Of a stretch of DNA of 64,000 bases, positions 3,001-45,221 are shown piece after piece (within the stretch, counting starts at the first letter, position 1; each line of letters starts with the position of its first letter). A model generated the notes under the pieces. The model was not told the DNA's origin. It ran no database searches and worked only from the letters and a program-made list of their open reading frames with translations. This DNA comes from Massalongia carnosa. Lineage: Eukaryota. The stretch is taken from assembly GCA_965645245.1 (NCBI GenBank), contig OZ287078.1, forward strand, positions 868,001 through 932,000. The letters are read 5' to 3'. The translations under genes were made by a program, and so were the position numbers.

Positions 3001-3541
3001 TCCTTTTCTGATTAATCTGAAATAGGATCTTTGGTATAATCCTATTCCAGACGTTTTTCCCCTTCTTTTCAGTGATCTGTTGACCGGCCGTTCAATAGAG
3101 ATCGATAAAGCCTAAAATGGTATATGCAGAAATTATACGTGAAATATACTGTGAAAATTTGTGCTTGCGGAAGTTCCCGTAACCTTAAATGAGAAATGAA
3201 CTTCAAAAAAGTTGGTCGTCGCGACAGTTGTTGTACAGTACCGCGACAGTAGATATTTTTTGTAGATAATTCTTGTAGTAATAATTGAGGGTAATGCGAC
3301 AACAGAACAGAAGAAAGTGAGAAAAAAGAGCGATTTTTGGTGATATTGTTGGTATTTGTTATTTTTTATAACTTCTTGAGCGCGCTTTATCACGTCTGTC
3401 GCGTGCGACCAGCAGAAAATATCCGCTGGAGCTTTGCCGGAGCTCTCCTACACTAAATCTGAGTCCGTTTTTGCTCTGGAGGGGCTAAAATGACTGAGAA
3501 AGAGATGTTCAATTGACTGTGAACGTTATAGAGTATCAAAA
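1..3541 (-). mobile_element. Tad1-like LINE copy 1 (5' UTR, disrupted gag-like ORF1, start of ORF2 AP-endonuclease; runs off the left edge)
   Basis: ORF1 pieces 2656-1102 with CCHC knuckles (QCINCQKFGH). ORF2 starts at 1102 (IQHNCGRS...LFQEPW endonuclease motifs). The 5' UTR is colinear with copy 2 up to a shared TATCAAAA end. Contains in-frame stops. Confidence 0.88.
310..866 (+). mobile_element. 5'-truncated LINE (ORF2 C-terminal zinc knuckle, 3' UTR, poly-A) inserted antisense into LINE copy 1
   Basis: GHGYFRSYLHR...C..C...QTPEHLLLNC motif; AATAAA at 842-847; poly-A 849-867; 14-bp TSD ATAGCTACTCTCGA at 296-309 and 867-880. Confidence 0.92.
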
Positions 3542-6056
3542 GTTCCGGTACTTGTGTTTCGATAGGTGGTCTTTTTCAAATGCTCCTTTGAAATCGAGTA
3601 ATAAACATGATAAAACGTTTTTGTTTCGGTTTGCGATTTCGATATCGTGAACGACGTTCATTACCGCATCGATTGGAGAATGATTTGTGCGTCCGCCCAT
3701 TTGTTCGGTATCTAACAAGCTCGAATTTTCGCCGAGGTAGGCTAGTCGATTAGCAACTATTTCTCCGCAATTTTACCAAGATAATTCAGTAATGTATTAA
3801 TTCGATATGATTTTGGCAGCGAGTAGTCAGGTTTATTAGGTTTTTTTAAAACTGCACCGAGTCCTGTTTGCCAGCATAACGGGTGATAACCGATTTGTAT
3901 AAATTTAGAATAAATAGTAAAAAACACGTTTTTCAATGGTTGAAACGATTTTTGAACTATTGTGAAATTGATTGCATCAGGTCCACATGATTTCTTTGGA
4001 TTAAACAAACTAATCGCATTTTGCAATTCATTTTCGGTTAAATTCGGCCAATTGTTGTCATTTTCGCTGTCTTGATTCGTTAAATCTTCAATATTATCGT
4101 CCGTGAACGGGTTTTTTGTGTACATTGCTGACACAAACGCATCGCATTTGTGATCGAATTGAGCATTTAACTTGTTTTCATATTGAATAGGTGGTATTTT
4201 TTCGAACATTTACGGTTTAGTGTATTTATAAGCTGTAAATACGTCTTTATTCGCTGCGTTTTCGAGGAAAGCCAACCAAGTTTGCTGTTTCGCTTTTCGA
4301 ATTGCATGAAAGTACTCGATTCGGCTATGTCTAAATGTTTGATGACTAAAATAGGACGGATTATTCTTCCATTCTCGACGATGTCTACACATGATTTTTC
4401 GAAGTCCGGTTAAATCTTGCGATCACCAATTTTTCGATTTTGCGCATATTTTTGTCTTCGGAATAAACATTTCAGCCGCGTTTTTGATAACGTTTTGCAA
4501 ATATAACGCTGATTCATCAAATTGATAATTGTTCAATAGACTTTGTATTTGGGACTCGTAGTTTATTGCATTTTCGTCTAGAAACTTCGCGAATTTATCC
4601 CAATCGGCTTTATTGCAGTTGTATTTATTCGATAATGCGGTTGTGTGTGACGTCAAGTTCTTGAAAGACGCGATAAGTTCAAATCGGATAACTTCAAGAT
4701 CTGAACCCGAGACTGCGTTTTCATCGATTGACCAATTTGTAATTGCGTTTTCGATTTTAGAATTTGCAAATGTTAAATCAATAATAGATGAAGAGTTTCC
4801 TGAATGAGCAAAAAATGTATATAGATCAGGCGTATTTATCAAACTACATTTGTTTAATTTTAACCATTTGACTAGATTTTCTGATCGAATTACATTTTGA
4901 ATCTTCGAATTCCATCAGCTATGATTTGCATTAAAATCTCCACATATGACAAATTGATCAGTTGATATAGGTTGATATTTGACTAAAAGTCGATCGATTG
5001 TATATGTTTCTCGATCGTTTAGACTTTTTTCATTGTAGAGGTGAAAGTTCTGCACTTTTCGAACTTTATCAATTGTAATTTCGATAATTTGCAGATCAGA
5101 ATCGTTAATAAGATCCGATCTAGGCGTGCATTGTAATTTTGGATTGCATTTTGAAACGAATATAGCTATTCTCGGCCGATAAGTCGCTATTTTCGGCATA
5201 ATACATGTGAATGACGGACGGGAAATTGTTTTTTGATCTCGCGTCCATGGTTCCTGAAATAAAACAATATCAACACGATTTAATACTGTATATTCCAGAC
5301 ACGAAATCATTGCATTCGTTGACTTTGCACAATTCTGTTGAATAAATTTGACTTTATGTGTATTTTCGATATTTGTCAACGAATGTTGTCCCGCCATTAA
5401 CCAAGCATTAATTCATCATTCGATTTTCTAGGATTTAGCGAGATAAATATTTCGCATCCTACATCGTTCGATTGATGATTTTTGTTGCAATTGACGCATT
5501 TCAGAATCGAATGTGCGCATGCGATTTTAGACTTGCATGTTGTGCATTCATGATTATGCGTTTCATGACTTTGTGAGCATAAATTGCATTTTGCCGGACT
5601 TTTGCATTGATAATGCTTATGTCCAAATTTCTGACAATTAATACATTGCGTGTTTGGACAAACGGAAGCAAATATTTCCGTGTCACAATGTCTACCCGCG
5701 ATATTCACGCCTCTTAACGCGTTTGAAGCTTGATTTTGATTATTGAAAGTCAAAACTACCGACGACGTGACTTTGTTTTGACGATCCCGAGCAAGCCATC
5801 TTGGTAAATCGCATAGTTGCATATTCGAATTGTATTTTTCGATTTCGGTTTGCAAATATTGCATGTTATTATCGAATAACTAGATATTTACTCTGTGTGC
5901 TATGACTTTAAACTAAGATTCGTCTTTTTGAATTCTTTGTGATTCGAAAATGTGTTCCCATGAATATTTATTTTTCAACAATTCTTCGGCATTGTTGTCA
6001 GGGCTAGTGGTGAGAACGATATTCTGACCGGTTTTGGACTTTTCAACAGTATTGAC

Positions 6057-6307
6057 TATCACGATTCTACACGGCACGACCTCGGTACTCGGCACCGCCT
6101 AGGGTAATATTTGATAGAACATGCAGGCACTTTCGATTTCGTTCCCGCAGCTACTAGAAGATTCCATGACGACTATACCACATGGGTACTAGCGCAGTAG
6201 AGGATATATAGGGGCAGGTTCTGGTTGTCGATTGTCTTTTTCCTTCTTCATCTTTATTGTATTCGTTTCTAGTGTCCCTATGACTTGTCTCTAGGTAGAT
6301 CATAACA
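6057..6307 (+). mobile_element. Gypsy solo LTR (251 bp)
   Basis: TATCAC(<TGTCAC)...ATAACA ends; TSD TTGAC at 6052-6056 and 6308-6312; 3' part near-identical to the Gypsy A LTR. Confidence 0.88.
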
Positions 6308-6892
6308 TTGACGATGATGTTTAAATTTGCGTTTTTTAATAGTGCGTTAATTTGATCACGCAACTTCATAGAGTCGATTTGAGCGTGTCACGGTTCTACT
6401 CGGCACTACTTGGGTAGACTGGAGCGGAACAAGCCACAAGCCGAAGTCACGGGATCGCATGTGCGCGCTAGACTCATCGCGGCATTTACGGTTTCCATAG
6501 CTAGTCAATGCTCGAACCTTCTAGATCCTTCCACGAGTCGGTCGAGGGCTAGGGGCCGCTGGACTATATAGGAGCGAGATTTGTCTTTCAATTGATCTTT
6601 TCTTCTTCATCTTGATTGTATTCGTTTCTAGTGTCCCTATGACTAGTTTCTAGGTAGATCATAACATTACAATCAAGATCATTTACCTTCGCTATCCTTC
6701 GTGAGGGATATAAAAGAACTCACCTGAACCACGAAGACACTGAAAAGAAACCGAACCTGAACCAAAACGACGAACCGAAACGAAACTAGAAGAACCAGAG
6801 ACCGCCACTGCGTTGGCACCGAACCGAACCGAACAGAACCGAACCAAACCCAGAAAACGAACCTAGAAGAACCGAAGGAAGCCTCCCCTACA

Positions 6893-11962: not shown

Positions 11963-13067
11963 TCGCACTAATCGTATCGGTCACTTAGTCTCAGATTAAG
12001 CGGAGATAACGCGGACATTATCGCGGTCAGGTGACTCGCGATCTAAAGCGGGGGGTAGTGTCACGGTTCTACTCGGCACTACTTCGGTAGACTGGAGCGG
12101 AACAAGCCACAAGCCGAAGTCACGGGATCGCATGTGCGCGCTAGACTCATCGCGGTATTCACGGTTTCTATAGCTGGTCAATGCTCGAACCTTCTAGATC
12201 CTTCCACGAGTCGGTCGAGGGCTAGGGGCCGCTGGACTATATAGGAGCGAGATTTGTCTTTCAATTGATCTTTTCTTCTTCATCTTGATTGTATTCGTTT
12301 CTAGTGTCCCTATGACTAGTCTCTAGGTAGATCATAACAGAGCGTCAGGATTTTTCGGTGAATTCACGAGTCGTCTGGCCTTGGTTGCATCAAATCGATC
12401 GACTTTGTTCGAATTATAATTCGAACTTTTCCTTTGAATAGTAGTCCAATTTTCGGAGTTTTCGGTTGCTTTTCCAAGCATTTGACTCCATGTACCGGTT
12501 GTGCTAACATTGTTACCAGAGACCCCGGTGGCTCCATTGCGAATAGTCTGATTTTCGATAATTGAACTTTCATTCAATTTAACAATAGGTTTTTGGATTT
12601 TTAGACCGTTCTGTAGTGGAGTCGTTTGTTGTTATGACGTTTTTGAGAAAAGATGACTAGTTTGATCAAGTACTATGCCCATTTTGTAGTTAATCATATC
12701 TAAGGATGTTTGTAAATTGATTGATTTTTTAGAAATCAACGAATTAACGTTGTCAAATACGATAGCCGTTTGCAGATTTTGGTCGAGTACAAATGATTGC
12801 AATAGTGCTTTTTTGGCCGACTTTAAAAGCTCAATTGAATTTGCCCGATTGATCGCTTCTTGGCTATCTCTCGAATGTTCGTCAAATGTTCGTATTTTAT
12901 TTCGTTTGATTAGTGTGCTTGATCCAATATTTAAATTCAATGAAGGCATCGACAAGATAGTGGAAAATGGACCCGATGGGAATTTCGTTGCCTTTGGTGT
13001 TGGTGTTGACGGGGCTGATGCATATTCGCGAGTTTGATCCATAGTGAAACGGGGAGACCTTCTCCCA

Positions 13068-13540
13068 GCAGGCATTCACTACTGGAAGATGGGATCCACA
13101 GGGGCTACACAACGTGATGGTCACAATAGAGGTACAAATAGGTTGGGTCGGGTCAAAGGGTAGACTAAATGCTACCCTTTTGAAGTGCTTGATCATTGAT
13201 CTATATAGGATAGGACAATCCATAACCTAAGCTCTTCTTCCATACCTTGCCCATACTACCTGGTATTTTCGGACTCCGAAATACTTCGGACACCGAAAGA
13301 CACGGGTAGATAAGACTAGGCAGGTGAGCTAGGGGAGGTGAGGCGAGGCGAGGGGATACTTCGTGTACTACGAAAACACCTCCATAATAAGTTAAGTCCC
13401 CACACTATGCCTAACTGGGTTAGGCGGGACCTTATTGTCTTGGTGGTTGTTTTGGCTGTACGTATCCCACATAGCCACATAGGCCAGTCTTACGTTCAAC
13501 GAACGCATACTAGGCCTACCCTATTACACATAGGTTCAAG
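13068..13540. mobile_element. Unclassified 473-bp insertion in LINE copy 2 ORF1
   Basis: 9-bp direct repeat ACGGGGAGA at 13059-13067 and 13541-13549; removing the insert rejoins ORF1 in frame (...GSSPR/FTMDQ...); absent from LINE copy 1. Confidence 0.75.
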
Positions 13541-14763
13541 ACGGGGAGAGCTCCCTATCAACGCCACCGGGGATGGTCCGGGGGAGTGTCGGGGGGGGAC
13601 CGGGTAGGGGGTCGATAGGGGGGCGGGACCGGCTGGGGGTGGTGTCCTTGGTATATTCCGGCGGTTCATTACCGCGTTAAACATGATTTTATAAATAAAT
13701 CGATGTTGCCTTTGCTATATCCCCTTTATCGCCACCAAATAATTTATTCTGACGTTCCCCGGACGTAATAGTCAGAATAGAGAGTTTTTACGCCGATTTA
13801 CTGGTCTAAAGACTCTTGCTTTCCAAACCCTATTTATGTGACAATAACAAGTCAAATAAATCCTAGTCGAGTTAAAATAGACCGTTCCTCGCTTAGGCAA
13901 TAGATCTTATTTAACTCTTTACCTAGACACTACGATATTTGGAATATAATAAGAATTTTACGATCGAACAGAATATTTTTTTTTTAAAAAATGTTTTTGA
14001 TCCAGAAATAAAAATCAAGTACAATGAGAGAGTAGGAGACTTCCTATTCTGGTTAGCCTGAAACAGGGCCTTTGGTTTAACCCTATTTCAGACGTTTTTC
14101 CCCTTCGTTTCAGCAGATTGTTGGTCGGCAGTTCAACGTAAATCGAAAAACCCAAAATGGAATAGTGTATACGGTACCGGTAACCTTAAATTTCAAATGA
14201 ACACCAAGAAGTTTTGTTGTCTCGAGAACAGGTTGTACAGTTACGCGACAGTGATGATATTTTGTAGATAATTTTTGTGATAATAGATGAGATCTATGCG
14301 ACAGTTAAACCGAAGAAATATCGAAAATCGAGCGATTTTTGACGTTGTTGTTGGTGTTTTTGTGTTTCGTAGATTTTTTGGACGCGCTTTTTGGTGAAGG
14401 GGCGGACAGACCGCGAGGAAAACTCTGCAGGAGCAGTGGAAGAGCTCTCCTGTACCCAATTCTGATGGGTTTTAGCTTCTGGTAGGCTCAAATGAATGAG
14501 AAGACTGAGGAAAATAAGTTGGGAAAGTTTCAGTATATCAAAATATAGGGTACTGATGTTTTGGGGGTTGGCTTTTGGGCGCTGTGTCTCCTTCTATTTC
14601 GTGCATCAACTAGTCGTTCAGTCGTTCAGTCGTCGAGTTCTTTTCATGTCTATGCAGTCGTAGGTCCATTCAGACGTTTGTGTGTGTGTGTATGTTCACT
14701 GCTCAGTTCGCCATCTATCATCACGTATCACCACCTTCCATTAGCACGCACGACTACCCTTCT

Positions 14764-17700
14764 TCAATATTTCTTGACAAACTCCAGTTCTTTCTGGGAC
14801 ATGCTCCGAAGAGGACTATATCCATGATCTTTACCCCCTTCGAGCAGTATCTTGTGATCATGCAATCTATAAGGTGACAACGTATCAGAATCTATCTTCG
14901 AAAACACGTCCAAAACTTCGTGATACTCCGGCGGCACTACCAACTTTGGATCAGTAGGAGGCCTCGACTCCTTATTCAACTGATCGTCTATGTCCTTCAT
15001 CGAGATCGCATAGACTTTTACCGCCTTACAGTGAGTAAGATATCGGTAGGAGTCTGCACCAATGATGGCTACATCAACTGGTTTAGATGGTTTCGGATCG
15101 ATCCTCGGAACTTCCTTTGGGATTGGAGTAGCCTCCGGTTTATCTTCCATGATAGATCGACGCAATATCTTTCGGGGTGAGATCACTATAGTCAACTCCT
15201 CATCCGTCGATTTTTTATTGATCGTTTCCAGTTTCCTAGGAGGTTCTATCAACTTAGGAGCACCCGGGTGGGTGCAGTGTCCAGGCCAGAACATGATTTT
15301 ATCGCAACTCATGTCCAGAATGACTCCATGCTTTCGCATCCATGGTTTTCCTAGTATCATTTTATGCTGCCCCAGCTGTGTAATCAACAGAGGCGAGATT
15401 GTTTCCCTATGATTCTGCACGGTGAGGGTAGGATAGATGGCGTGGGTGATAGGTTTACCCAAGCGGCCATCGAAACCTCTCACCGGCTTCGGTTTCGTCA
15501 ATCGCTGCGGTGATAGTTGCAGTCGTTCACAAATCGTGCGCACCATCTTTTCATCAATAAAAGCATGTCCTGTAGCACCAGTGTCTAACAGAGTAACAAG
15601 CTCTATTTCTTCCTGATTGCCTAGTTTACATGAAGTAACAAGAGGTTCATCGGTAAACAAATCACCAGGCAAACAAGAGGATGAGATCAAAAGAGGTTTA
15701 TCATCGTCATCTCCACTCGCGTCTTCGAGGGAGATCAGTCTTTTTTTGACTTCGGCTCAACATCTAACTCGTTAATGATGGCTGTCATCTTTGATTTCTT
15801 TTTAGGACAGTCCCTTGAGGGGTGTCTGACCTCCTTGCAATTGAAGCACTTCCCTTCCCTGCTCAACCGCTCCCGTTCCGACTCCGATAGATAGGATCCT
15901 ACGGTCCAGGACGACAAGGTCGATGGCGATGAAGGGGCACGAGACTCGGTGCGAGCATTTGATGCCACATAGGTTTTGCTTTCGGTGGTAGCGGTAGGGG
16001 TGTTCGCCGGGACCACTACGCTGGTTGGTTTTTTTCCTTCGGCAAAGCGTTCCATCCTAGCCTTGCTACGATCCACATCCTTCAGAGCCTGATACATACG
16101 CTGGCAACGCTGAGCGAACGCATATAGGTCGGTTGGTTCGTGATCGCCGGTGGCTAGCTGACGGCGCATATCTAGGTTGAGCTTGTGTTTCAACTCACCG
16201 ATTAGTGTAACGGTTCGACCAAGCGTGGTGCGGAGGGCAGGACCTACAGCGAACATAGCAGGAGTCCCAGTTATAGTAGAATAGAGCTTGGTCTGCGGAC
16301 TAAGTATTATGCCTTTTGGTCGGGAAGGACAGGTGGCGCAATGGTAGAAATCTATTCACTATCTCGCTTCGTCACAATTAGGGTAGACTCATTGTGATCC
16401 AACTCGGCGGCCAAACGCCGAAACTCCGCCCAAAAGGTATTGAAGTCCTTTTGACCCTGTCGCAGAGAACGGAATAGGTTCATGGCAGTCTGTTTGCGGT
16501 TCGGATCTCCATAAATTCGTTCCAAATGATCAAACATTTCCTCTGCAGTAAGAAAAGGTTTGATAGCATTTTTTCGGAGACGAGGTTCCAAATGGCCCAT
16601 AGCCTCTCCGCCGACTCGGTTTTCCACATAGGCCTTTTTAAATAGCTCGGTAGGCATATAGTCTTCATTAGCTGCTAATTTGCTGCGCATTTTAGTCAAC
16701 CAATGATCGATACTCGGTTCTTTTCCATCGATAAAAACCGGTGGGTCTGGAAGTTTCATCGACTTCCATAAAGATTCTTCGCTCTGATTGGATCGTGCAG
16801 GGGAGCCCTGCAGGTCATGTGGAGGTGGAATTGGTGGTGGTGCATTACTCCCTGCAGGTGCAGTAGCTGCTGCGGCCATCCGCCGAGCCTCTTCAAGTTC
16901 TTCCTTCTGGTATTCAATCATACCTGCTTGGCGAATGATTTTGATCTGACTATCTTCTAAACTAAGCACAAGCTTATTATGTTCCACCACGACCTCCTCA
17001 TAGTCTGACTTCATGTCTCATATTATAGCCAAGACTGTTTCGGCATCCTCCTGCACCCAGTGCCGAAGATGTTGTACTGTTTCTATCCTCCATGGTGAGT
17101 CAGCCCCGGGGCCTTCTTCACCGATGTCTATGGGCGGGATGAGAGACTCCCGTTGATAGTAGGTGGGTGTTTCGTTCGCGGATCTAGCCATTTCTATCGC
17201 TCTTCCTTACTCAGCTCTGTTGAGTATAGTCCAGTTTCGTTCGTTTTCGGATTGTTATCGGATCTACTATCATATGCTGAAGATAGTCCTAGGATTTCGG
17301 ATCTGGTTCGTGTTTCGGGTGCTGACTGACTGACGGACTGACATACAGTTGGGTGGATTGTTTTATATCCTCTACAAGGGATAGCAAGATTTAGAGTGAT
17401 CTTACTAGTTGTGTAGCACGTCGACCTAGATAGAAATCTAATAGGGACTATGTACGAAAACTAGTAAGATGAAGAAAGAAAGCTATGTACAGATCGCCGG
17501 TTAATAAACACTCATACCCGTGCTAAGCCTAATGCAGGTTTTCATCACCGTCGTTGAACTGCTCATACCACGCGTGTTAATAATGTCGCTACAAGTAGTG
17601 CTAAATCCGTTTTCGGTTAGATAAGGTGAATAGCACTACGTCATGTGTTGCCTGAGGTTAGAGCGTTGTAATCCGTGATAGACGCCCTCAGCGCACTATC

Positions 17701-18151
17701 AATCTCCTATAATCCGTATCCGATCTTATCGTCTCTACTATCCAGGCTTATGACTGAGAGTGCTTCAGCACAGATAAAGGCGGGATAGGTCAAAGCAATC
17801 ATGTTAAGGAAATTAGTATAGGAATAGAGATGGGGCAAGTCGAGATTAGAAGAGTTGAAAGCAATGGCTATAAAGTCTATGTGGTTTCCTAGGTGTTTAG
17901 AGCTCTTTGACGTCTTGTGTATTATTCTCAACTTCTAGTTTTAGCATATCTAGATATCCGTTCTGCAAGATAGAGTCTTGTATCTCTCTAGCCCTCCCCT
18001 GACATCTACTGCGCTAGTATCCATATAGTATATTCGCGGTAGAATCTTCTCGTGACTGCAGGAACAAAATCGAAAGTTCCTGCTCGTTCCATCTATGGTT
18101 TGGTGCCGAATTAATCCGAGTGCCGAGGTCGTGCCGATTAGAATCGTGACA
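14764..18151 (-). mobile_element. Ty3/Gypsy element B, 3'-truncated (5' LTR, gag, protease, start of RT)
   Basis: LTR about 17412-18151 (TGTCAC...GCTACA on the minus strand); gag about 17191-15735 interrupted by a solo LTR; protease LLDTGA; breaks off at ELEFVKKY. Confidence 0.9.
16206..16376 (+). mobile_element. Family D solo LTR-like element (171 bp) in Gypsy B gag
   Basis: TGTAACG...CGTCACA ends; TSD ATTAG at 16201-16205 and 16377-16381. Strand is arbitrary. Confidence 0.88.
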
Positions 18152-18168
18152 AATTACCTATTCAATCG

Positions 18169-18442
18169 TGTTGAATATCCAATTCCTACCAGCACAATGA
18201 ACACCTATCAGTACGATGAACATAGCACCTACGGCTGCCCTAGATGGACAGATCATCTACGGAAACCGTAGATGCCGCATTAGGCTTAGTCCCAAGATAA
18301 GATAAGATCACCTCGCTTAGAAGGGGGTGACCAGTAATAGGAAAAGATTGCTGCCTAGCAACTCTTCAACCTTAACATCACGGTCATACATACCTTTATT
18401 ATTACATAGCCATATAGCCATAGTCATACACCTATTTCAACA
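18169..18442 (+). mobile_element. Copia solo LTR (274 bp), same family as 42654-48824
   Basis: TGTTGAA...TTCAACA; TSD AATCG at 18164-18168 and 18443-18447; 2 differences seen from the full element's LTRs. Confidence 0.95.
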
Positions 18443-18517
18443 AATCGAGTATTAATTAAACAAATTAATCTTGATCAAATTAACACTTTACTTTTTATCG
18501 TAATGGTTATGTAAATC

Positions 18518-18895
18518 TACGCCGCGCGTCGGGTTACCCAACCTGTCGGGTTTAGGCTAGGTTTTCGGTTCGGATTTTTTATGCGGGTTTCCGGGTTAAA
18601 CCGTTCAACCCGGTGAGTTTTTTCTGCAAATTAAATATGAACTTTCGACACAAATATGACATTTGAAGTTATAAATTTTTTGCTTACTAATCATCATTTC
18701 TTGATGACTAATTTCCAGAATTTTCAGAATTTTTAAATGTGTTTAAAACGTCTAAAAAACACGTTTAAAATTGATATAAAGAATCGAACGGGTCGACGGG
18801 TCAAACGGGTTAACCCGAGAACGGTTCCCCAACCCGGTAGCGAGTCGGGCTCGACTAGTCAAAACCCGACCCAACCCGACCTGTTGCGCGGCGTA
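18518..18895. mobile_element. hAT-type MITE (378 bp)
   Basis: TIR TACGCCGCGC/GCGCGGCGTA; 8-bp TSD TGTAAATC at 18510-18517 and 18896-18903; many subterminal AACCCG/CGGGTT motifs. Confidence 0.85.
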
Positions 18896-18963
18896 TGTAA
18901 ATCAAACGATTATTAAAATGTGACGGTTCGACCATGCGTGGTGCGGACGGCAGCACCTATAGC

Positions 18964-19459
18964 TATAAGAGGGACAGTAGACACTAGTCCTTATGGGTTA
19001 TAATGCTCAGTGTGACTGCTAATAGATTGGTAGGTGCTAAAGCTAAAAGCTGATTCCCTGAAGATGGGAATCGAGCTTTCTATATACCCCTTGGGGTCCT
19101 ATTTACTAACTACTTATCTGGTTACCTGTCTGCCTTGTTGCCTTCAGCTGAGGTCTAGTAGATAGCCTTGCTGCCTTCAGCTGAGGTCTAGCAGATAACC
19201 TTGTTGCCTTCAGCTGAGGTCTAGCAGATAGCCTTGTTGCCTTCAGCTGAGGTCTCCTAGGCGTCCCAGGCCTCCCATGAGATCGAGGCTTATCTGAATA
19301 GCTTCAGTTGCTGCCTAACAAACTGGTAGGGCTGATTGCTGATGGCTTAGTATTGCTATCCGCCTTATCATGACTTAGCATCCGGATTATCAGTCACCCG
19401 GTCTTCTTGGGTGAGTCATCCCAGGAGCTAGCGCACTCCTGTATTGCCGCGCTATTACA
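18964..19459. mobile_element. Solo LTR (496 bp) of another family nested in the family D element
   Basis: TATAAG(<TGTAAG)...ATTACA; TSD ATAGC at 18959-18963 and 19460-19464. Confidence 0.8.
19132..19255. repeat. 33-bp tandem repeat, about 3.8 copies, inside the solo LTR
   Basis: Unit GCCTTGTTGCCTTCAGCTGAGGTCTAGCAGATA with a TCAGCTGA palindromic core. Confidence 0.9.
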
Positions 19460-19673
19460 ATAGCGAACATAACAGGAGTCCTAGAATAGAGCTTAGTCTG
19501 CGGACTAAGTATTGTGTCGGGAGGACAGGTGGCGCAATGGTAGAAATCCATTCACTATCTCGCTTCGTTATATAAAACGTCATTCGAAGTACTTTAAATG
19601 TAAATAAAAACTTCTCGTTGTTGAACGTAAATATTCACACTATCCGGAGAACATTATAAACTATTTTGAACAA

Positions 19674-20147
19674 TGTGACTGTTTAACCAGGATGTGGAAT
19701 TGACTATCTACTGGGAAGCTATGTACTAGAAAATATCAAAGATGCAGAAAGGAAACAAGCAAAAGGTGCCCTCTCTAGGAGTCTATATAGATAATCGCTT
19801 GGCCCGATCCAGCTGCTTGTGTCTTCATCAATAAGTGAACAGTTTGGTCAAATAGTCTTTTTGCCCGTTGTCCCTTTCATCTATTAGTGTTTGCTTTAAA
19901 AGGTCGTTCCGATGCGACCCTCTAAAGCAAACACTAATAGATGAAAGGGACAACGGGCAAAAAGACTATTTGACCAAACTGTTCACTTATTGATGAAGAC
20001 ACAAGCAGCTGGATCGGGCCAAGCGATTATCTATATAGACTCCTAGAGAGGGCACCTTTTGCTTGTTTCCTTTCTGCATCTTTGATATTTTCTAGTACAT
20101 AGCTTCCCAGTAGATAGTTAATTCCACATCCTGGTAGAACCGTCACA
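19674..20147. repeat. 474-bp palindrome occupying the 5' LTR position of Gypsy C
   Basis: 233-bp arms 19674-19906 and 19915-20147 (about 6 mismatches) around the loop TTCCGATG; the right arm matches 3' LTR sequence 25739-25972. Confidence 0.95.
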
Positions 20148-20757
20148 TAATATCAAAGATCACTTTTTACCCTGTTATCCATCGTGGAGGATACAAAATA
20201 ACCCACCCCATAGAAGCAGAACCAGAAGGCCGCCACCCCTACAGCGTGGCATTCAGAACCAGAATTACCCTATAGATCCAGAACCAGAAGGTCCCCACCC
20301 CTACAGCGTGGCACCCAGAACCCTATTTAGATCCAGAACCAGAATTAGAGACCATGGCGAATCGTCATAAAAAAGAACCAGAACTAGAACCAGAACAGGA
20401 CTCTGTTCATTATCCGGCCCTGCCAGAAGAAGAAACCCAACTGGAAGCAGAAGACCCTTCCATGATCCAGACAATAGAACATCTGAGGGCATGGATGCTC
20501 CAGGATGAGCAGGCAGTGTTACAGATAATTATAGCCATAAAGGAAAGTTATGAAGAGGCCCAAGCTGAAGCGGCCAAAGGAAAGAACACCATGAGCCGAC
20601 TCCTCTCCCTGACGAAACAACAAGAAGGAGTAGTGAATTACTTACAAAAGGTAGTCGAAAAGCTTAGGCTGACATTGATCGAAGAGCGACGACCGGATGT
20701 TGCTACTATCTCTTATTCCACCATCAGTCAGAAGGCAAAACGTTCCATGAAGCTTCC

Positions 20758-20922
20758 TGTGACGAAGCGAGATAGTGAATAGATTTCTACCATTGCGCCA
20801 CCTGTCCTTCCCGACCAAAAGGCACAATACTTGGTCTGCGGACTAAGTAAGTATTGTGCCTTTTGGTCGGGAGGACAGGTGGCGCAATGGTAGAAATCTA
20901 TTCACTATCTCGCTTCGTCACA
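20758..20922. mobile_element. Palindromic family D LTR derivative (165 bp) inserted in Gypsy C gag
   Basis: 75/74-bp inverted arms, both the ...CGTCACA end of family D; TSD CTTCC at 20753-20757 and 20923-20927; splits the gag motif KLP/DPP. Confidence 0.93.
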
Positions 20923-23900
20923 CTTCCTGACCCACCGGTATTTTCCGACGGAAAGGAACCGAACATCGATCATTGGCTAGCCAAAATGCGAAGCAAGTTG
21001 TTGGCCAATGAGGACCATATGCCAACCGAGATATTGCGAAAAGCCTATGTAGAGAACCGAGTGAATAGTGATGCCATGCGACACATGGAAGTCAGACTGA
21101 GGAAAGGGGCCACCAAACCTTTCGAGACCGCTGAGGAAATGTTGGAATTATTGGAACGAATTTATGGGGACCCCAATCGAAAACACACTGCTATGAAGGC
21201 ATTTAGGGCCTTGCGCATGGGAAGTAAGGACTTCAATTCTTTCTGGACCGAATTTCAACGACTATCTTCGGAGTTAGATTATAGCCCCTCCACCCTTATT
21301 GATGAACTCACTCACAAGCTCTCCTTGGACATGAAAAGCAACTGGCCATCGGAAATCAGGATCCCACAGACATTTATGAGTATGCTCATCGTTGCCAACG
21401 AATTTTTCAAGCTTTGAAAGATGCCGAGAGTTCAAAAGCGAGCTATGATCGAATGAACGAAGGAAGGAAAAACGTCATCAAAACATCAACACCCTTCAAG
21501 CCTAGAGTGGACACTCCTGCATCCAAACCTTCAACCTTACCTTCTCACTCCGTCCCTATTGAACCTGCTGTCACATCGGGACGTTTGACTGAGGTGGAAC
21601 GAGAACAATTAACGAAGGAAGGTAGATGTTTTTACTGCAAAGAAAAGGGACATTTAGCAAAAGACTGTAGCAAAACTTCCAAAGCTACTATCCACGAAAT
21701 GAGCGGCGAGACGGGAAAAGAATAACCTCATCTGAAGGCGCGGATGAGGAGGAACCTCTATTGATCTCCTCTTCCTATTTTCCTGGTGATTTATTCACCG
21801 ATGAACCTTTTGTTCATGCATGTACGTTAGGTAATAGGAATGAGATAACGCTTGATGCTTTTTTAGACACCGGTGCTACGGGACATGTTTTTATCGACGA
21901 ATCAATGGTGCGCACTATTTGTGAACAACTTCAAATCGAACCCCAGAAACTGACGAAACCCAAACCGGTGCGAGGATTCGATGGACGACAGGCCCCTAAT
22001 ATTACCCATGCCATTTATCCCACCATGACGATGCAGGATCATCGTGAGAACTTATTACCATTGCTGATCACCGAACTAGGACAGCACGGAATGATTCTAG
22101 GAAAACCTTGGATGAGGAAGCACGGACTCCTCCTGTACATGAAGGACGACAAGATCATGTTCTGGCCTGGGCATTGCACCCATCCTGGCGCCCCTGGACT
22201 GCCAACACCAATGAAAATGATGAGGCAGACAACGTCGGCTTCGAACAAACCAGAACAGACCCGAACGGTCCGACAAATCCTAGTCCGACCGGAAGAGACC
22301 TGTACGGAACGATCCGCCCCATTGTCGGTACCTTTTAAGAAAATTGGAAAAGGACTATCAGAAAGAATATCACAAAAGTCATCTGCCGAAGATAAGCCGA
22401 TAGACTGCGCCCTCATAGGGCCTGCGGCCTACAAATTACTGACCAAGGAGAAAGACGTTCAAATATTCGCAATTTCTCTGAGGGACATTGACTATCAATT
22501 AAACAAGGAATGTTCGACTCCTACCGACCCGAAGACCAAAGTTCCTGAAGAATATCATAACTTTCTGAAGGTATTCTCCAAAGCTGAATCAGATGAGCTA
22601 GCACCTCATAGCCCATACGATCACAGGATCCTGTTGACCGGAGATCAAGCTCATGGACACAGCTATTTGAGGAGTATGTCCCGCATGGAATTGGAGTTCG
22701 TGAAGAAATATCTGGAGGACAATCTAAGAAAGGGGTTCATAGAGGCCAGTCATGCCGCATGTTCTTCTACTATCCTATCAGCCAAGAAACCAGGTGGAGG
22801 ACTCCGTTTCTGTGTTGATTACAGAAAATTGAACCAACTAAGTAAGAAAGACAGATATCCATTGCCCTTGATTGATAAAAGGCTAGCCCAGTTGAAGGAA
22901 GCCAAAGTGTTTTCCAAACTGGACATTCGACAGGCTTTTCACAAGCTGAGAATGGCCAGGGAATCCGAGGACCTTACCACCTTCAATTGCCGCTTTGGAG
23001 CGTACAAATACAAGGTGTTACCATTCGGACTGACCGGCGGACCTTCTTCCTGGCAGCATTTCATCAATGACATTCTGTTCGAGTACCTGGATAAATTCTG
23101 CTCGGCCTACTTGGACGACATCTTGATCTACAGCAAGAATATTACAGAACATCGAGAACATGTCCGAAAAGTGTTGGCCAAACTTCAGGAAGCTGGTCTT
23201 CAAGTGGATGTAGACAAGTGCGAATTTCATGTTATTGAAGTCAAGTACTTGGGGTTAATCATCACCACGGAAGGAATAAAATGGATCCAGCCAAGGTTCA
23301 GGCCATAGTCAGTTGGGGAGTCCCAACCTGTCTTCGTGAAGTACGATCTTTCTTTCATAGGATTCTGTAACTTTTATCGACGTTTCATAAGAGTCTTTTC
23401 CAAGATCGCTGGTTCACTGAACGCTTTGGCGAAAAAGGGAAAATTATTCGAATGGAATCAAGTCTGTGGACAAGCATTTCAAGGATTGAAACAGAGAGTT
23501 ATTGAAGCACCAGTCCTAGCTCACTTCGACCCGAAGAAAAAATGTTATCTGGAAACGGACTCGTCAGACCACGTCAATGGAGGAATAATGTCTCAGAACG
23601 GAGAGGATGGAAAGTTGCACCCAGTCGCCTTCTTCTCCAAGAATCTCAACCCCGCTGAATGCAACTATGAAATCTATGACAAGGAGCTGCTGGCCATTAT
23701 CCGATGTTTCAAACAATGGAGGCCCGAATTGGAAAGCACCGAGCTACCCGTTAAAATCTTCACCGACCATAAAAGCCTGGAATATTTTATGACCACAAAG
23801 AAACTCACCAGACGACAGGCCCGATGGGCCGAGTTCCTCTCAGAGTTCAACTTTGTCATCACCTATAGGACGGGCAAGCAAAATGAAAAAGCTGATGCTC

Positions 23901-25972
23901 TTACACGTCGTTCGAACGACAAGCCACAGGATGACGAAGCTGAAAGACAAAAGCATCAATTACAAACGGTGTTGACCTCAGATAGACTAGACCTTCAACC
24001 AATCGAGATCATCGATGAAGACCTTACCCTCGCAGAAAAGATCAAACATAGAAATCTTTCAGATGAGACCTGCAACCGAATGAGGAGTAAGCTGACCGAA
24101 GAGGACTATGAAGAATCACTAGAACTAGACCCGCTCCCCAGCATCAAGGATTGTGTAATCAAGGAAGGCCACCTCTATAAAGCCGAACGCTTATGGTTCC
24201 CGCTGACGATGATTTGATCCTCAATGTAATTCGACAAATTCATGATCAAGTAGCAGTTGGACATCCCGGAATGGCAAAAACACAACGAACAATAGCCAGG
24301 GACTACTACTGGCTAGGCATGTTGAACTCCATTCGGCGTTATGTCAGAAATTGCCATGTGTGCAAACGAGCCAAAGCACCCAGGGACAAATACAATGGAG
24401 TACTGAAAACCCCTGCCAGTTCCTGAAAGACCATGGACAGACATTTCGTTGGATTATGTAACTGGACTTCCAGAATCCCAAAATGGTCACAATGCAATTT
24501 TGATGGTAGTCGACCGATTGTCAAAGGAACGGCACTACATTCCATGCACGGCCAAGGAAGAGGGAACAACCGCTGAAGCCACCGCTAAACTGCTGATTAG
24601 GAATGTTTGGAGGTATCACGGCCTCCCAACCAGTATGGTTTCTGATCGAGGACCGCAGTTCGTTTCCGATACCTGGAAGGGCATGTGTAAAATCCTAGGA
24701 ATCACCACAAAGCTTTCCACCGCATTTCATCCTGAAACGGACGGCCAAAGCGAAATAGCCAATCAGGAAATAGAACGACACCTCCGGAGTTTCACCAACT
24801 ACTTTCAGGACAACTGGGTTAAACTATTGCCAATGGCCGAGTTTGCGGCGAACTCCGGGGAAGCAGAAACCACCCACCTTTCACCTTTTATGGCTAATCG
24901 AGGTTATGAACCAAGGATGAGTTTTACTTTGACCGACTTGTCGGCCGACACCACCCGTCAAAGACTCGCCAACGAAAAAGCCAAGGACATCACCGAGGAC
25001 ATGGAGAAAGTTTGGGACTTCGTCCGAAACAGCATGACCAAAGCTCAGGAAAGACAAAGGACCGCCGCGGACCGGCACCGAAACGAAGTCACTTATGAGG
25101 AAGGAGACATGGTCTGGTTATCCACCAAAAATATCCAAACCGAAAGAAGCTCCAAAAAGCTGGACCATAAAATGATTGGACCATACCGAGTGGAAGAACT
25201 CATCGGATCCGCATGCCGATTAAAGCTACCAGCTTCCATGAAAATTCATGACGTCTTTCATACAAGCTTATTGAGAAAAACAGCTGACGACCCTCTACCC
25301 GGACAAGTAAATGAACCATCTCCTCCAGTAATAGTAGACAACAAGGAAGAATGGGAGGTGGATGACATACTGGACGCTCGGGAGGTACTATCGAAAAGTC
25401 CACTTCAAAGTCAAATGGAAGGATCATGATGAAGATAGACAATGGTACGACGCAACTGGCTTCGAAAATGCTAAGGACATAGTAGAAGACTTCTATCTTC
25501 GACACCCTAACAAGCCTCGATGGAGTATTTCCTGATTATGATAGTCACTTTTGGGGCTAAAAACATAGTATGTTCAATGAACCTCCACTAAATGCGAAGG
25601 GGTCCACATCCACCCAAGGCCAATCAAAGGAAAGTACGGCATCTGCCAGCGCAATAACCGCTTCCGTTACTCAACCCTTTTAGCAATCATAGGGACAATC
25701 AACGGAGGTCTGAAAGGACTGAAAGGGACGCATCGGAACGACCTTCTAAAGCAAACACAAATGGATGAAAGGGACAAAGGGCAGAAAGACTGTTTGACCA
25801 AACTGTTCACTTATTGATGAAGGACACAAGCAGCTGGATCGGGCCAAGCGATTATCTATATAGACTTCTAGAGAGGGCACCTTTTGCTTGTTTCCTTTCT
25901 GCATCTTTGATATTTTCTAGTGCATAGCTTCCCAGTAGATAGTCAATTCCACATCCTGGTAGAACCGTCACA

Positions 25973-26596
25973 TCTACCCTCATCATCGACCCCATTATTG
26001 ACTAGAACACCTCGCACTTTCACTGAGATCGTTATCTTTGACACTATACTTTAAAGAAGCATGCAGAAAAATGATGTTATCGACGGAAATTAGAAGTTGC
26101 ATGTCGATCGCTTTTTCAAAGATTCTATGGCTAGCGCTCATGCTCAGCAATTGGCTGAAAGGGACTTATTGACCTCAGCCAGAGCCTCAATTGCTAAGGC
26201 AGCGCGTAAAAAGCTTGCTGGAACTGTTGCTCAGTCAGGTGGGGTCATCACCGTTCGAGATTTACGTGCTAAAGTCACCAAACGACATGAAGATGAGGTG
26301 GAAAAGGCACAGAAGGCCTTGGACCGAGCTAAAGCGGCCGCATTGAAAAAGCAACAGGTCATCGACAACGCCGAAAAGAAGCTCTAGAAAGGCCTATTTC
26401 GTGAGGCCAATATCTTCCTTCGAGCGCGTAAAAAATGGGAGGTTGAAAGGACCAAATGGTGGAAGGTTTTCCGTAGTCAGATTGAACATGCATAGTTAAT
26501 TTGGTCTTTGAACCGGTTTGGACTTTGAGCCGTTGGGCACTAGTAAGCGAAAACGATTACTGGTGTGGCACGATTAGCCGACTCGCTTCGATTACT
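25973..26596 (+). mobile_element. 3' fragment of a probable Fot1/pogo-like DNA transposon
   Basis: ORF 26097-26387 (..RTPRT.., VAQSGGVITV, basic coiled-coil tail) resembles the C-termini of fungal pogo transposases; putative TIR near 26555-26596. No catalytic domain in view. Confidence 0.55.
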
Positions 26597-40943: not shown

Positions 40944-41083
40944 GATGGCGGTGTAGTGGGGGGTGTAAGTTGATTGCGATTAATCTGCAAAGTTTATCAA
41001 AGTTAGAGTATTATCGACAAATATTCGACGGGTTAAGCTAACATTTCGCTTAAATTCAGGTTGAGGGCAATAACCCTAGCTAT

Positions 41084-42407: not shown

Positions 42408-43180
42408 CCTGTCACGCGGGTGAAAAAAAAATATGCAACGTTGGCCGAGGTTAACCCCAGACCACCCACCGAAATCTTCTAAATAATCAAACAAAATCCC
42501 ATACATTATGATACTCCTCTGAAGGCTAAATTGCAAGGCGCGCATTAATATCTTTCTTCTAAAGGTATTCCACACGACGTGCGCGACATTTTCAAAGAAT
42601 TTGATGTTAGATCTGAAAGAGCAGAATATAAAGGGTCAGAAATATATGACACTTGTTGAATATCCAATTCCTACCAGCACAATGAACACCTATCAGTACG
42701 ATGAACATAGCACCTACGGCTGCCCTAGATGGACAGATCATCTACGGAAACCGTAGATGCCGCATTAGGCTTAGTCCCAAGATAAGATAAGATCACCTCG
42801 CTTAGAAGGGGGTGACCAGTAATAGGAAAAGATTGCTGCCTAGCAACTCTTCATCCTTACCATCACGGTCATACATACCTTTATTATTACATAGCCATAT
42901 AGCCATAGTCATACACCTATTTCAACAGGTTATGAGCCCGGAAGGGTGCTATCGATTTAAACGAATCGAAACTTTTAATCCGCAGCTTCGCAGTGCAATC
43001 AGCTAAGCATCGTTCCTATTCAATAAATCGTAGACACATGACTAAAATCTTTCTGTGTCTTTAGAAACGATCCCTTAAATCACATCAATCAGTTCTCTCT
43101 TCTGTACACAGCGATTTCTTGTCAGAAGCACAAAAACTGCGTGTTAGAAAGAGCATGAACACATTGATCGTACTACACCG

Positions 43181-44739: not shown

Positions 44740-45221
44740 AAAAAAGTATATTGCTGGCCCTGAGCGCCCCATTGGTTCAAAAATCATCAAAGCGTCAGTT
44801 CACCCGTGGTTGAGTTCTGGACACGCAAACAATACAAAATCCCTCGGACATCAAAGAGCTTAGTAAACTCATTGATCGAAGGCACAAAGACCTTTCTTTT
44901 TGGCAATTATGCCTCCTTAAGGCACTAGATGAGATTGTGCGGCAGTTGCCTCTTATTATCTAACCGGCCTAAGGCCGGTTAAATCAATTGGAATAATCAA
45001 TTTGCTTTTGGTCAATTGGACCCTTGAAAAAGCCGGAGTTGAAATTCTCATCATGGCAAACAAGCATGTTAAGCTAACAGGTTTCTCTGTTGAGACATCA
45101 GAGTGGACACTGCCTAAGGAGGGACTGTTTTTTCCTTGTCTATAAGAAAGGTCACAGATCCACATTCTTTCAGTCACTACTAAGTTTCTCGCCTTGTTCA
45201 ATTGCTCCCCATTCTCCCATT

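What the first reader, a model, noticed from the sequence alone, without database searches (positions are those of the whole stretch)
20753..20927. Fold-back LTR mini-element: two copies of the same LTR end integrated with a perfect TSD
Seen: the 165-bp insert is the right end of family D (compare 16206-16376 and 18919-19572) joined to its own reverse complement. It has TG...CA ends and a CTTCC TSD. The turn-around point is a stem-loop already present in the normal element (CTTRGTC-TGCG-GACTAAG). A solo LTR left by LTR-LTR recombination would have two different ends. Inference: nascent cDNA folded back at the stem-loop, self-primed, and gave a short duplex with two identical att ends that integrase inserted. 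This would be a MITE-like element of LTR-retrotransposon origin and a potential hairpin-RNA source.
Basis: partly seen in the sequence, partly recalled or inferred. Interest (0 to 1): 0.78.

Follow-up and report, generated by a model that had tools for sequence, protein, structure and literature searches.

The report
Palindromic insert made of LTR ends
A 165-base mirror-image piece, built from two copies of one end of a jumping gene's terminal repeat, sits cleanly inserted inside another jumping gene of a lichen-associated fungus; it most likely records a copying accident that the element's own insertion enzyme then pasted into the genome.

Summary
Window 20758-20922 is a 165-bp near-perfect palindrome with TG...CA ends and a CTTCC duplication on each side. 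Both arms match the right ~90 bp of family D, whose other copies are 16206-16376 and 18919-19572. A 1163-nt contig from an independent run joins 20752 directly to 20923, which is the empty site. Removing 170 bp in silico restores a 323-codon gag frame.

New here: family D behaves as a true LTR of a Tf1-like, self-priming Ty3/Gypsy lineage.
- Run contigs carry a PPT-like flank at its left end.
- At its right end they carry an 11-nt flank complementary to GACTAAGTATT inside the LTR.
- The two neighbouring Gypsy elements have the same architecture.

So the arms are R-U5, and the turn-around stem-loop straddles the inferred U3/R border.

Best reading (0.58): nascent minus-strand cDNA snapped back there, became a duplex with two U5 ends, and integrase inserted it.

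I found no sign that the palindromic form has multiplied. No read-level check of this locus and no whole-genome count were possible. A second LTR palindrome (19673-20148) lies 610 bp upstream. This is a new variant of a known kind, of moderate to high interest.

The parts
20753..20757 (.). Left copy of the 5-bp target-site duplication, CTTCC
   Evidence: Read directly. The empty-site contig in run X1 carries only one copy: 20752 joins 20923.
20758..20832 (-). Left arm: inverted copy of family D from the U5 terminus (TGTGACG...) inward to inferred R position 5. Its last 3 nt (CTT) are shared with the centre.
   Evidence: It is 94% identical to the reverse complement of 16287-16376.
20830..20840 (+). 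Turn-around: CTTGGTCTGCG, the last 11 nt of U3 in normal copies. This is the 5' half and loop of the native stem-loop, present once.
   Evidence: Alignment with copies A and B. U3/R border inferred.
20841..20922 (+). Right arm: family D from inferred R position 1 (GACTAAG...) to the U5 terminus (...CGTCACA). It carries a 4-nt TAAG tandem duplication within 20844-20851.
   Evidence: Most contigs covering 20844 in runs X2 and X1 lack the 4 nt (table 4).
20923..20927 (.). Right copy of the target-site duplication, CTTCC
20276..21417 (+). Host of the insertion: gag region of Ty3/Gypsy element E3 (LTRs 19915-20148 and 25739-25973)
   Evidence: Pfam Retrotrans_gag on 20854-21417. A 323-codon open stretch spans the junction once the 170 bp are removed. 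LTR pair.
16206..16376 (+). Comparator copy A: 171-bp short form of the family D LTR (U3 nt 1-45 joined to the last 126 nt). Duplication ATTAG. Inserted in gag of the minus-strand Gypsy element E2.
   Evidence: Removing it plus one duplication copy restores a 368-codon frame.
18919..19572 (+). Comparator copy B: 654-bp family D solo LTR. Duplication TAAAA. Internal tandem repeats. Termini mutated to TGTGAC...GTTATA.
16298..16308 (+). GACTAAGTATT in copy A (also 19503-19513 in copy B): inferred first 11 nt of the family D transcript, the self-primer
   Evidence: It is complementary to the 11 nt that follow the U5 end in the majority flank of 19 contigs of run X2 (table 7). It occurs only in these 2 places in the window.

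Best explanation
The 165-bp palindrome is a by-product of reverse transcription of family D, inserted by the element's integrase.

Family D is the LTR of a Ty3/Gypsy lineage that primes its own reverse transcription as Tf1 does. Its right end is U5. Its transcript is inferred to start at GACTAAGTATT, 79 nt from that end.

Proposed steps:
1. A nascent minus-strand DNA started at the primer site next to U5.
2. It copied U5 and R, and went 8-11 nt further into U3. That means it had just made the first template switch, or was copying a transcript that began upstream.
3. Its 3' end then folded back on the small native inverted repeat at the U3/R border (CTTAGTC-CGCA-GACCAAG on that strand) and was extended along itself to the U5 terminus.
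4. After conversion to a full duplex, the molecule had two identical U5 (CA) ends.
5. Integrase joined both ends to a 5-bp staggered cut in the gag region of a resident Gypsy element, giving the CTTCC duplication.

Shown: the palindrome, its exact U5 termini, the duplication, the empty site, and the turn-around at the native stem-loop.

Inferred: the polarity and RNA start of family D, the fold-back itself, how the hairpin became a two-ended duplex, and the action of integrase.
For: 1. Clean insertion.
- One contig of run X1 joins 20752 to 20923 (table 8, record 7). It has 24 differences over 957 nt, so it is a paralogous or allelic copy.
- Removing 170 bp restores a 323-codon open stretch across the junction. 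With the insert, the frame stops at 20780 after 168 codons.

2. Both termini are the same LTR end, exact to the last base, and each abuts the duplication. All 3 of 3 family D copies in the window have TG...CA-type ends and their own 5-bp duplication.

3. Family D is an LTR with U3 on the left and U5 on the right.
- Its left end TGTGACGGTTCGAC matches 12 of 14 nt of the U3 start of element E1, TGTCACGGTTCTAC, which follows the polypurine tract AAAGCGGGGGGTAG.
- Contigs that stop 3 nt before the left end carry a similar flank...GACGGGCGG plus TAG (9 contigs in X2 with agreement 0.67; 2 in X5 with agreement 0.97).
- The majority flank of 19 X2 contigs at the U5 end reads, in element orientation, AATACTTAGTC. 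That is the exact complement of GACTAAGTATT in the LTR.

4. The neighbours have the same architecture. In E1 and E3, 12 nt right after the 5' LTR are exactly complementary to an LTR site 58 nt and 71 nt from the LTR end. Both carry Tf2-type SH3 integrase domains, and E1 also a chromodomain. A primer site complementary to the mRNA 5' end defines Tf1/Tj1 self-priming (PMC4600332, passages read).

5. The centre is co-linear with a fold-back at the native stem-loop. The two stem halves keep their native, non-identical sequences, and no foreign nucleotides lie at the joint.

6. Precedent for the chemistry: self-priming of HIV-1 minus-strand strong-stop DNA at the R-region hairpin gives aberrant cDNAs in vitro (PMC4668388, passages read).

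7. Parallel events in the same data.
- A 476-bp palindrome at 19673-20148 has arms of 234 nt, 97% complementary, with an 8-nt loop. It is the whole E3 LTR turned around at a small native inverted repeat at the U3 start, and its outer end is an exact U5 terminus.
- One X2 contig joins family D U3 starts on opposite strands, 16208 to 18923 (table 5).
Against: - No full-length family D element was seen. Polarity and RNA start rest on contig-flank consensus of modest agreement (0.61 and 0.67).
- Two other right-end flank groups do not show the primer-site sequence: 9 contigs behind 20923 and 3 contigs behind 16379.
- The native hairpin is weak on the minus strand (-0.9 kcal/mol alone, -2.1 in context). 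It is a microhomology rather than a strong structure.
- The palindrome includes U3 nucleotides, so the simplest version (self-primed strong-stop DNA) does not fit as it stands.
- A snap-back product is a hairpin with only one open end. The step that turns it into a two-ended duplex is hypothetical.
- The arms differ by two indels.
- No read or contig was shown spanning the palindrome with its gag flanks at this locus.
- In run X2, every contig covering 20709 and 20715 differs from the window (4 of 4, table 3).
- The nearby 476-bp LTR palindrome has no matching duplication (AACAA against TCTAC). Not every such structure here looks like a clean integration.
Confidence: 0.58

Rival explanations
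1. The palindrome formed outside the chromosome by host DNA repair or replication, not by reverse transcriptase. A broken or partial family D cDNA duplex carrying a U5 end was resected. It folded back at the small inverted repeat, was filled in and copied, and the resulting double-U5 duplex was then integrated.
For: It yields the same end product: exact U5 termini, a duplication, and a turn-around at a native inverted repeat. The hairpin is weak, so any polymerase able to use 3-7 nt of inverted microhomology would serve.
Against: The turn-around lies within 11 nt of the inferred U3/R border. The second palindrome turns at the U3 start. Both are landmarks of reverse transcription, which random breakage would not favour. 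No direct evidence distinguishes the two routes.
Confidence: 0.12
2. It is one copy of a mobile, multiplying palindromic mini-element (MITE-like). The element once arose from an LTR end and is now moved as DNA, either by a Gypsy-type integrase or by a Ginger-like transposase.
For: It is short, non-coding and palindromic, with TGT...ACA ends and a target duplication. Family D ends are very abundant in four runs: bins over them are 30-50 times deeper than the flanking Gypsy sequence in X2 (table 2).
Against: The abundance belongs to normal family D ends. Depth at the palindrome centre (place 20844) is 4,826.8 in X2, against a mean of 431,918.6 for its bin. It is 208.8 in X1 and 0 in X5 and X6. 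Normal copies can also lie on that place (tables 2 and 4). The tool warns that contigs show presence, not absence. No second palindromic copy occurs in the 64-kb window. Retroviral-type integrases are not known to excise integrated DNA (recalled).
Confidence: 0.1
3. Rearrangement after insertion. A normal family D short form or solo LTR integrated at CTTCC. Its U3 side was later replaced by an inverted copy of its R-U5 side, through template switching at the stem-loop during replication or through gene conversion.
For: Fold-back template switches at short inverted repeats are a known source of local inverted duplications (recalled). A 171-bp normal short form of nearly the same length exists in the window.
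Against: The new left arm would have had to end exactly at the last base of the element and leave the left CTTCC intact. A chromosomal fold-back copy has no reason to stop there. The empty-site contig and the restored frame show that exactly element plus 5 bp was added.
Confidence: 0.1
4. Assembly or sequencing artefact, for example a fold-back chimeric read or a collapse of two inverted family D copies.
For: Palindromes are prone to artefacts. A second palindrome lies 610 bp away. No contig was shown spanning this palindrome together with its gag flanks.
Against: An artefact would not produce exact LTR termini, a perfect 5-bp duplication and a frame-restoring 170-bp length. The arms differ by two indels, unlike a read copied on itself. 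In X2, 795.7 of the 4,826.8 depth at 20844 keeps the window-specific 4-nt TAAG duplication. That is close to the depth of contigs matching the window with 0 differences (721.6 and 773.3, tables 4 and 8).
Confidence: 0.05

Closest known systems
Self-priming (snap-back) of retroviral minus-strand strong-stop DNA at the R-region hairpin (HIV-1 TAR; PMC4668388, passages read, and its reference Guo et al. 1997, not read)
   Same: A nascent minus-strand cDNA that starts next to U5 folds back on a hairpin near the start of R and copies itself. This gives an inverted R-U5 dimer.
   Different: That reaction is known as an in-vitro dead end suppressed by nucleocapsid. Here the product sits integrated in a fungal genome with a target duplication. 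The turn-around includes 8-11 nt of U3. The element is a self-priming Gypsy type, not a tRNA-primed retrovirus.
Solo LTR
   Same: An LTR-only insertion with TG...CA ends and a 5-bp duplication. Copies A and B of the same family are of this kind.
   Different: A solo LTR has a U3 start and a U5 end. This insert has two U5 ends, no U3 start, and only the last 8-11 nt of U3.
Tf1/Tj1-type self-primed Ty3/Gypsy retrotransposons (PMC4600332, passages read)
   Same: A primer site right after the 5' LTR is complementary to an LTR-internal site that marks the mRNA 5' end. This was found in E1 and E3, and in run-contig flanks for family D. Tf2-type SH3 domains are present in E1 and E3, and a chromodomain in E1.
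   Different: This concerns the parent lineage, not the palindrome. RNA 5' ends and RNase H cleavage were not tested.
MITEs and Foldback elements
   Same: Short, non-coding, almost entirely two inverted arms, flanked by a target duplication, and able to form a long hairpin.
   Different: The arms are a retrotransposon R-U5, not DNA-transposon ends. There is no evidence of multiplication. The 5-bp duplication and TG...CA ends are those of the local LTR elements.
Ginger DNA transposons (recalled from memory, not checked here)
   Same: TGT... termini and an integrase related to that of Gypsy elements.
   Different: Recalled to make 4-bp duplications and to encode their own transposase. No such gene or family was seen here.
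   Same: A palindrome bounded exactly by two outward-facing LTR-like ends, read as a palindromic double LTR-end insertion.
   Different: About 2 kb and spacerless. An unchecked AI note, in a different genome, with no read support either.

Membership tests
LTR of a Ty3/Gypsy retrotransposon (family D as a whole) | TG...CA termini with a short terminal inverted repeat, and a 4-6 bp target duplication | tested here: met
   TGTRACG...CGTCACA in copies A and C, mutated to ...GTTATA in B. All 3 of 3 copies have their own 5-bp duplication.
LTR of a Ty3/Gypsy retrotransposon (family D as a whole) | A polypurine tract before the U3 start and a primer site after the U5 end in full-length copies | tested here: inconclusive
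   Seen only as contig-flank consensus. A PPT-like ...GACGGGCGG+TAG occurs in 9 X2 contigs and 2 X5 contigs. AATACTTAGTC follows U5 in the majority of 19 X2 contigs. Other flank groups (18 + 9 + 3 contigs) are diverse or different.
LTR of a Ty3/Gypsy retrotransposon (family D as a whole) | Two direct LTR copies flanking gag-pol | not testable with these tools
   No genome is held. No family D internal region is in the window. No hits in metagenome, prokaryote-genome or viral collections.
Tf1-type self-primed retroelements | A primer site adjacent to the 5' LTR, complementary to the first ~11 nt of the transcript | tested here: met
   The sequence part is met. E1 and E3 each show a 12-nt exact complement, 58 and 71 nt from the LTR end. 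Family D shows an 11-nt exact complement 79 nt from the end. That these sites are the RNA 5' ends was not tested.
Solo LTR (for the palindrome itself) | One complete LTR with a U3 start at one end and a U5 end at the other | tested here: not met
   Both ends are the U5 end. U3 nt 1-45, present in A and B, are absent.
MITE | Terminal inverted repeats plus a target duplication | tested here: met
   Met trivially, since the whole element is inverted arms.
MITE | Many dispersed copies of the same short element | tested here: inconclusive
   One copy in the window. Depth at the centre is about 100-fold below the arms in X2 and zero in X5 and X6. Contigs cannot prove absence.
TRIM/SMART miniature LTR retrotransposons | Two direct terminal repeats around a short internal region with primer site and polypurine tract | tested here: not met
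   The arms are inverted, not direct. Only 8-16 nt lie between them.

The most novel reading that the evidence does not exclude
In this fungus, self-priming Gypsy elements routinely feed sub-genomic reverse-transcription by-products to integrase. Under this reading several structures are products of one by-product insertion pathway:
- the 165-bp double-U5 palindrome;
- the 476-bp inverted-LTR cap on element E3;
- the U3-to-U3 inverted junction seen in a run contig;
- possibly part of the very abundant 171-bp 'solo' family D copies.

Some 'solo LTRs' would then never have been full elements. LTR retrotransposons could seed MITE-like hairpin elements directly. If the palindrome is transcribed within element E3, it would also act as a built-in hairpin-RNA trigger against family D.
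Probability: 0.15. Interest if true: 0.8.

Novelty: new variant of a known kind. Interest (0 to 1): 0.58.

Why it matters
Snap-back of early minus-strand cDNA is known from test-tube work on retroviruses as a dead-end side reaction. A genomic insertion with exact U5 ends on both sides and a perfect target duplication would be in-vivo evidence for two things. First, such by-products survive. Second, integrase needs only two correct ends, not a genome.

That gives LTR retrotransposons a direct route to short palindromic, hairpin-forming insertions, a class usually credited to DNA transposons. It also gives a concrete, testable link between the self-priming chemistry of Tf1-like elements and aberrant products.

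Four literature searches (listings and abstract starts only) turned up no paper describing an integrated fold-back LTR-end element.

The case rests on one locus without read-level confirmation, so for now it is a well-defined lead rather than an established mechanism.

Tried and rejected
- Whole genome: none is held for this window. A genome-wide count of palindromic family D copies was therefore impossible.
- Public collections: a conserved 20-mer of family D gave 0 hits in metagenome contigs, genome contigs and viral contigs. A 19-mer over the stem-loop gave 0 hits in metagenome contigs.
- Earlier notes: there are none for this genome or for look-alike stretches. A many-word query also gave nothing.
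- tRNA or SINE origin of the GTGGCGCAATGGTAG motif: ARAGORN found 0 genes in the window and Rfam gave no tRNA match. Rejected.
- Rfam microRNA-precursor matches over both palindromes: 20.3-38.9 bits against gathering scores of 56-94. These are the generic response of hairpin models to any long hairpin. Rejected as evidence of a miRNA gene.
- Family D internal region in the window: the PPT-side and an alternative U5-side flank consensus have 0 matches with up to 3 mismatches. The LTR-end-plus-primer-site motif has 0 matches.
- Alternative primer site: the flank TCATTTGCTGAATG... (3 contigs behind 16379) has no complement in the LTR by eye. It was left unexplained.
- Plain self-primed strong-stop DNA: rejected in its strict form, because the palindrome contains 8-11 nt of U3 upstream of the inferred RNA start.
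- Coverage gaps: runs X5 and X6 show no cover at the palindrome centre, and X2 has no contig with the window's own letters at 20709 and 20715. I do not treat these as evidence of absence.
- One literature search failed on a two-letter term and was not repeated.
Full report
**What is there**

Window 20758-20922 is a 165-bp near-perfect palindrome.
- The inverted-repeat scan finds arms of 54 nt (98% complementary) and 24 nt (100%), with 16 nt between the inner arms.
- As single-stranded DNA it folds at -96.1 kcal/mol, against -17.8 +/- 2.8 for shuffles (z = -28; 0 of 200 shuffles fold as well).
- It begins TGTGACG and ends CGTCACA. CTTCC flanks it on both sides, at 20753-20757 and 20923-20927.
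- Its 34-nt terminus occurs 4 times in the window with up to 3 mismatches: both arms, 16343-16376 and 19539-19572. None is expected by chance.
- BLAST and alignment show that each arm is the right ~90 bp of 'family D'. Identity is 94% to copy A (16206-16376, 171 bp, duplication ATTAG) and 84-85% to copy B (18919-19572, 654 bp, duplication TAAAA).
- Copy A equals copy B positions 1-45 joined to 544-654.
- The small stem-loop CTTGGTC-TGCG-GACTAAG of normal copies occurs once, in right-arm orientation, at the centre.
- The arms differ only by a 1-nt indel, a 4-nt TAAG tandem duplication, and the native G:T position of that stem.

**It is a clean insertion**

The insert lies in the gag region of a Ty3/Gypsy element, E3. 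E3 has Retrotrans_gag, protease, RT, RNase H, integrase and a Tf2-type SH3 domain. Its LTRs are 19915-20148 and 25739-25973, 95.7% identical.

Removing the element plus one CTTCC in silico gives a 323-codon open stretch across the junction. With the insert, the frame ends at 20780 after 168 codons. The same test on copy A, in the minus-strand element E2, gives a 368-codon stretch.

There is also an independent empty site. In public run X1 (labelled a lichen metagenome), one 1163-nt contig lies on 20374-20752 and continues without a break on 20923-21500. It has 24 differences in 957 nt, so it is a paralogous or allelic empty site.

**What family D is**

No genome is held, and three public collections gave no hit. 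The evidence therefore comes from the window and from contigs of four runs laid on 16000-21500.

1. All 3 of 3 copies have TG...CA-type ends and 5-bp duplications.
2. The left end TGTGACGGTTCGAC matches 12 of 14 nt of the U3 start of element E1 (TGTCACGGTTCTAC), which follows the polypurine tract AAAGCGGGGGGTAG. It also matches 14 of 15 nt of the inverted U5 end of E3. Family D therefore carries the end sequences that the local integrases use.
3. Contigs that stop 3 nt before the left end share a PPT-like flank, ...GACGGGCGG plus TAG (9 contigs in X2, 2 in X5). Another 18 X2 contigs that stop at the left end itself have diverse flanks.
4. The majority flank of 19 X2 contigs at the U5 end reads, in element orientation, AATACTTAGTC ATCAATCGG... 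The first 11 nt are the exact complement of GACTAAGTATT. That motif occurs in the window only inside copies A and B, at the stem-loop.
5. E1 and E3 have this same architecture. In each, 12 nt right after the 5' LTR are exactly complementary to an LTR site, 58 nt and 71 nt from the LTR end.

A primer site complementary to the mRNA 5' end is the hallmark of Tf1/Tj1 self-priming (PMC4600332, passages read). I therefore read family D as a true LTR on the + strand, with U3 on the left and U5 on the right. The transcript would start at the G of GACTAAGTATT, giving R-U5 = 79 nt. A TATA-like TTATAG lies 22-27 nt upstream in copy A (read).

Cautions:
- The flank consensus has only 0.61-0.67 agreement.
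- Two other right-end flank groups (9 and 3 contigs) do not show the primer site.
- No full-length family D element was seen.

**Anatomy in these terms**

- Left arm, 20758-20832: inverted U5 end to R position 5.
- Centre, 20830-20840: CTTGGTCTGCG, the last 11 nt of U3 (the CTT is shared with the left arm).
- Right arm, 20841-20922: R position 1 to the U5 end.

The stem-loop thus straddles the U3/R border.

**Mechanism**

The bottom strand reads as a minus-strand cDNA that began at the U5 terminus. It copied U5 and R and went 8-11 nt into U3. It then paired its 3' GACCAAG with its own CTTAGTC and copied itself back to the U5 terminus. The joint carries no foreign nucleotides, and the two stem halves keep their native, non-identical sequences.

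Because U3 nucleotides are included, the strand had already made the first template switch, or was copying an upstream-initiated transcript. It is not plain strong-stop DNA.

The hairpin is weak as DNA: -0.9 kcal/mol on the minus strand and -2.4 on the plus strand in the copy-A type, and -4.3 in copy B. It acts as inverted microhomology rather than as a strong structure.

A snap-back product has only one open end. It must be unfolded and copied to become a duplex with two U5 ends. In a self-priming element, the 3' tail copied from the RNA primer could recruit a new primer. This step is pure inference. The exact termini and the 5-bp duplication then point to concerted integration by integrase.

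**Is the palindromic form a family?**

Family D ends are extremely abundant. In X2 the bin 16184-16367 sums to 1,181,183. Its neighbours sum to 39,907 and 59,748, and the LTR interior to 271,088-414,229. Contigs that match the window with 0 differences have depth 722-773. The tool warns that summed contig depth is not a copy number.

The palindrome centre is poorly covered. Depth at 20844 is 4,826.8 in X2, of which 4,031.1 (4 contigs) lack the TAAG duplication. It is 208.8 in X1, and 0 in X5 and X6. Normal copies can also lie on that place.

So I see no sign of amplification, though contigs cannot show absence. The remaining 795.7 of depth in X2 that keeps the TAAG duplication is close to single-contig depth. 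It is a weak hint that this locus is present in that run.

**Parallel structures**

- A second palindrome lies 610 bp upstream at 19673-20148, with arms of 234 nt, 97% complementary, and an 8-nt loop. It is the whole E3 LTR inverted, followed by E3's own 5' LTR. The turn is at a small imperfect inverted repeat at the very start of U3. The outer end is an exact U5 terminus. The direct arm lacks the first ~15 nt, which are present once as the loop and inner stem. Its flanks (AACAA and TCTAC) do not form a duplication.
- One X2 contig joins family D U3 starts on opposite strands, 16208 to 18923.
- An earlier, unchecked note of this scan describes a 2-kb double LTR-end palindrome in another fungus (e1-7649651).

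These fit a picture of fold-backs at reverse-transcription landmarks, but none is verified.

**Rivals**

- A host-polymerase fold-back of extrachromosomal cDNA gives the same product (0.12).
- A multiplying MITE-like family lacks copy support (0.10).
- Replacement of the U3 side after insertion cannot easily explain the exact left terminus and the intact duplication (0.10).
- An artefact would not give exact termini, a duplication and a frame-restoring length (0.05).

**Comparison and novelty**

The insert fails the solo-LTR definition because both its ends are the same. It fails the TRIM definition because its arms are inverted, not direct. It meets the MITE definition only trivially.

Four literature searches (listings and abstract starts only) showed no paper describing an integrated fold-back LTR-end element. 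One paper even remarks that retrotransposons lack inverted repeats able to give dsRNA (PMC7084138, passages read).

I rate it a new variant of a known kind, interest 0.58. The next steps are read-level confirmation and a genome-wide count.

Noticed in passing
window 19673-20148: A 476-bp near-perfect palindrome with arms of 234 nt, 97% complementary, and the 8-nt loop TTCCGATG. It is made of the inverted LTR of Gypsy element E3 followed by E3's own 5' LTR. The turn is at a small imperfect inverted repeat at the U3 start, and the outer end is an exact U5 terminus. There is no matching target duplication (AACAA against TCTAC).
   Followed up: partly
window 6667-6679 with LTR 6385-6666; window 20149-20161 with LTR 19915-20148: Elements E1 and E3 each have 12 nt right after the 5' LTR that are exactly complementary to an LTR site 58 nt and 71 nt from the LTR end. 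This is the signature of Tf1-type self-primed reverse transcription.
   Followed up: yes
window 16206-16376 (and runs X1, X2, X5, X6): The 171-bp short form of family D is far more abundant in run contigs than the interior of the 654-bp form or the surrounding Gypsy elements. One 174-nt contig of a third coded organism matches it with 2 differences. Why a promoter-poor short LTR is so successful is unexplained.
   Followed up: partly
window 16206/16377 and 16208/18923 (joints in run X2): One contig joins the family D right end back to the left end (goes back 172). One joins two U3 starts on opposite strands. These suggest tandem and head-to-head family D arrangements elsewhere in that genome.
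   Followed up: no
window 41077-42410 and 51894-53226: Two 1.33-kb DDE_3 (Tc1/mariner-like) transposons, 99.7% identical, in opposite orientation, each with an intact 372-aa ORF and ~50-80-bp terminal inverted repeats. They look recently active.
   Followed up: no
window 18168-18443, 42654-42927, 48550-48825: A ~275-bp repeat in three copies, 99-100% identical, of unknown nature. In X2 one family D right end is followed after 5 nt by this repeat.
   Followed up: no
window 43176-44740: A ~1.5-kb tandem array with a period of about 50 bp. Copies are 92-96% alike, and ORFs overlap it at 44004-44620.
   Followed up: no
window 1-6000: An AT-rich stretch (GC 35-38%, against ~45% elsewhere) holding degraded copies of sequences found at 12399-14502 and 4867-6058. 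This pattern resembles repeat-induced point mutation.
   Followed up: no
window 19132-19255: Copy B of family D contains about three tandem copies of a ~33-bp unit (CCTTGTTGCCTTCAGCTGAGGTCTAGCAGATA-like) in its U3. The short form lacks them.
   Followed up: no
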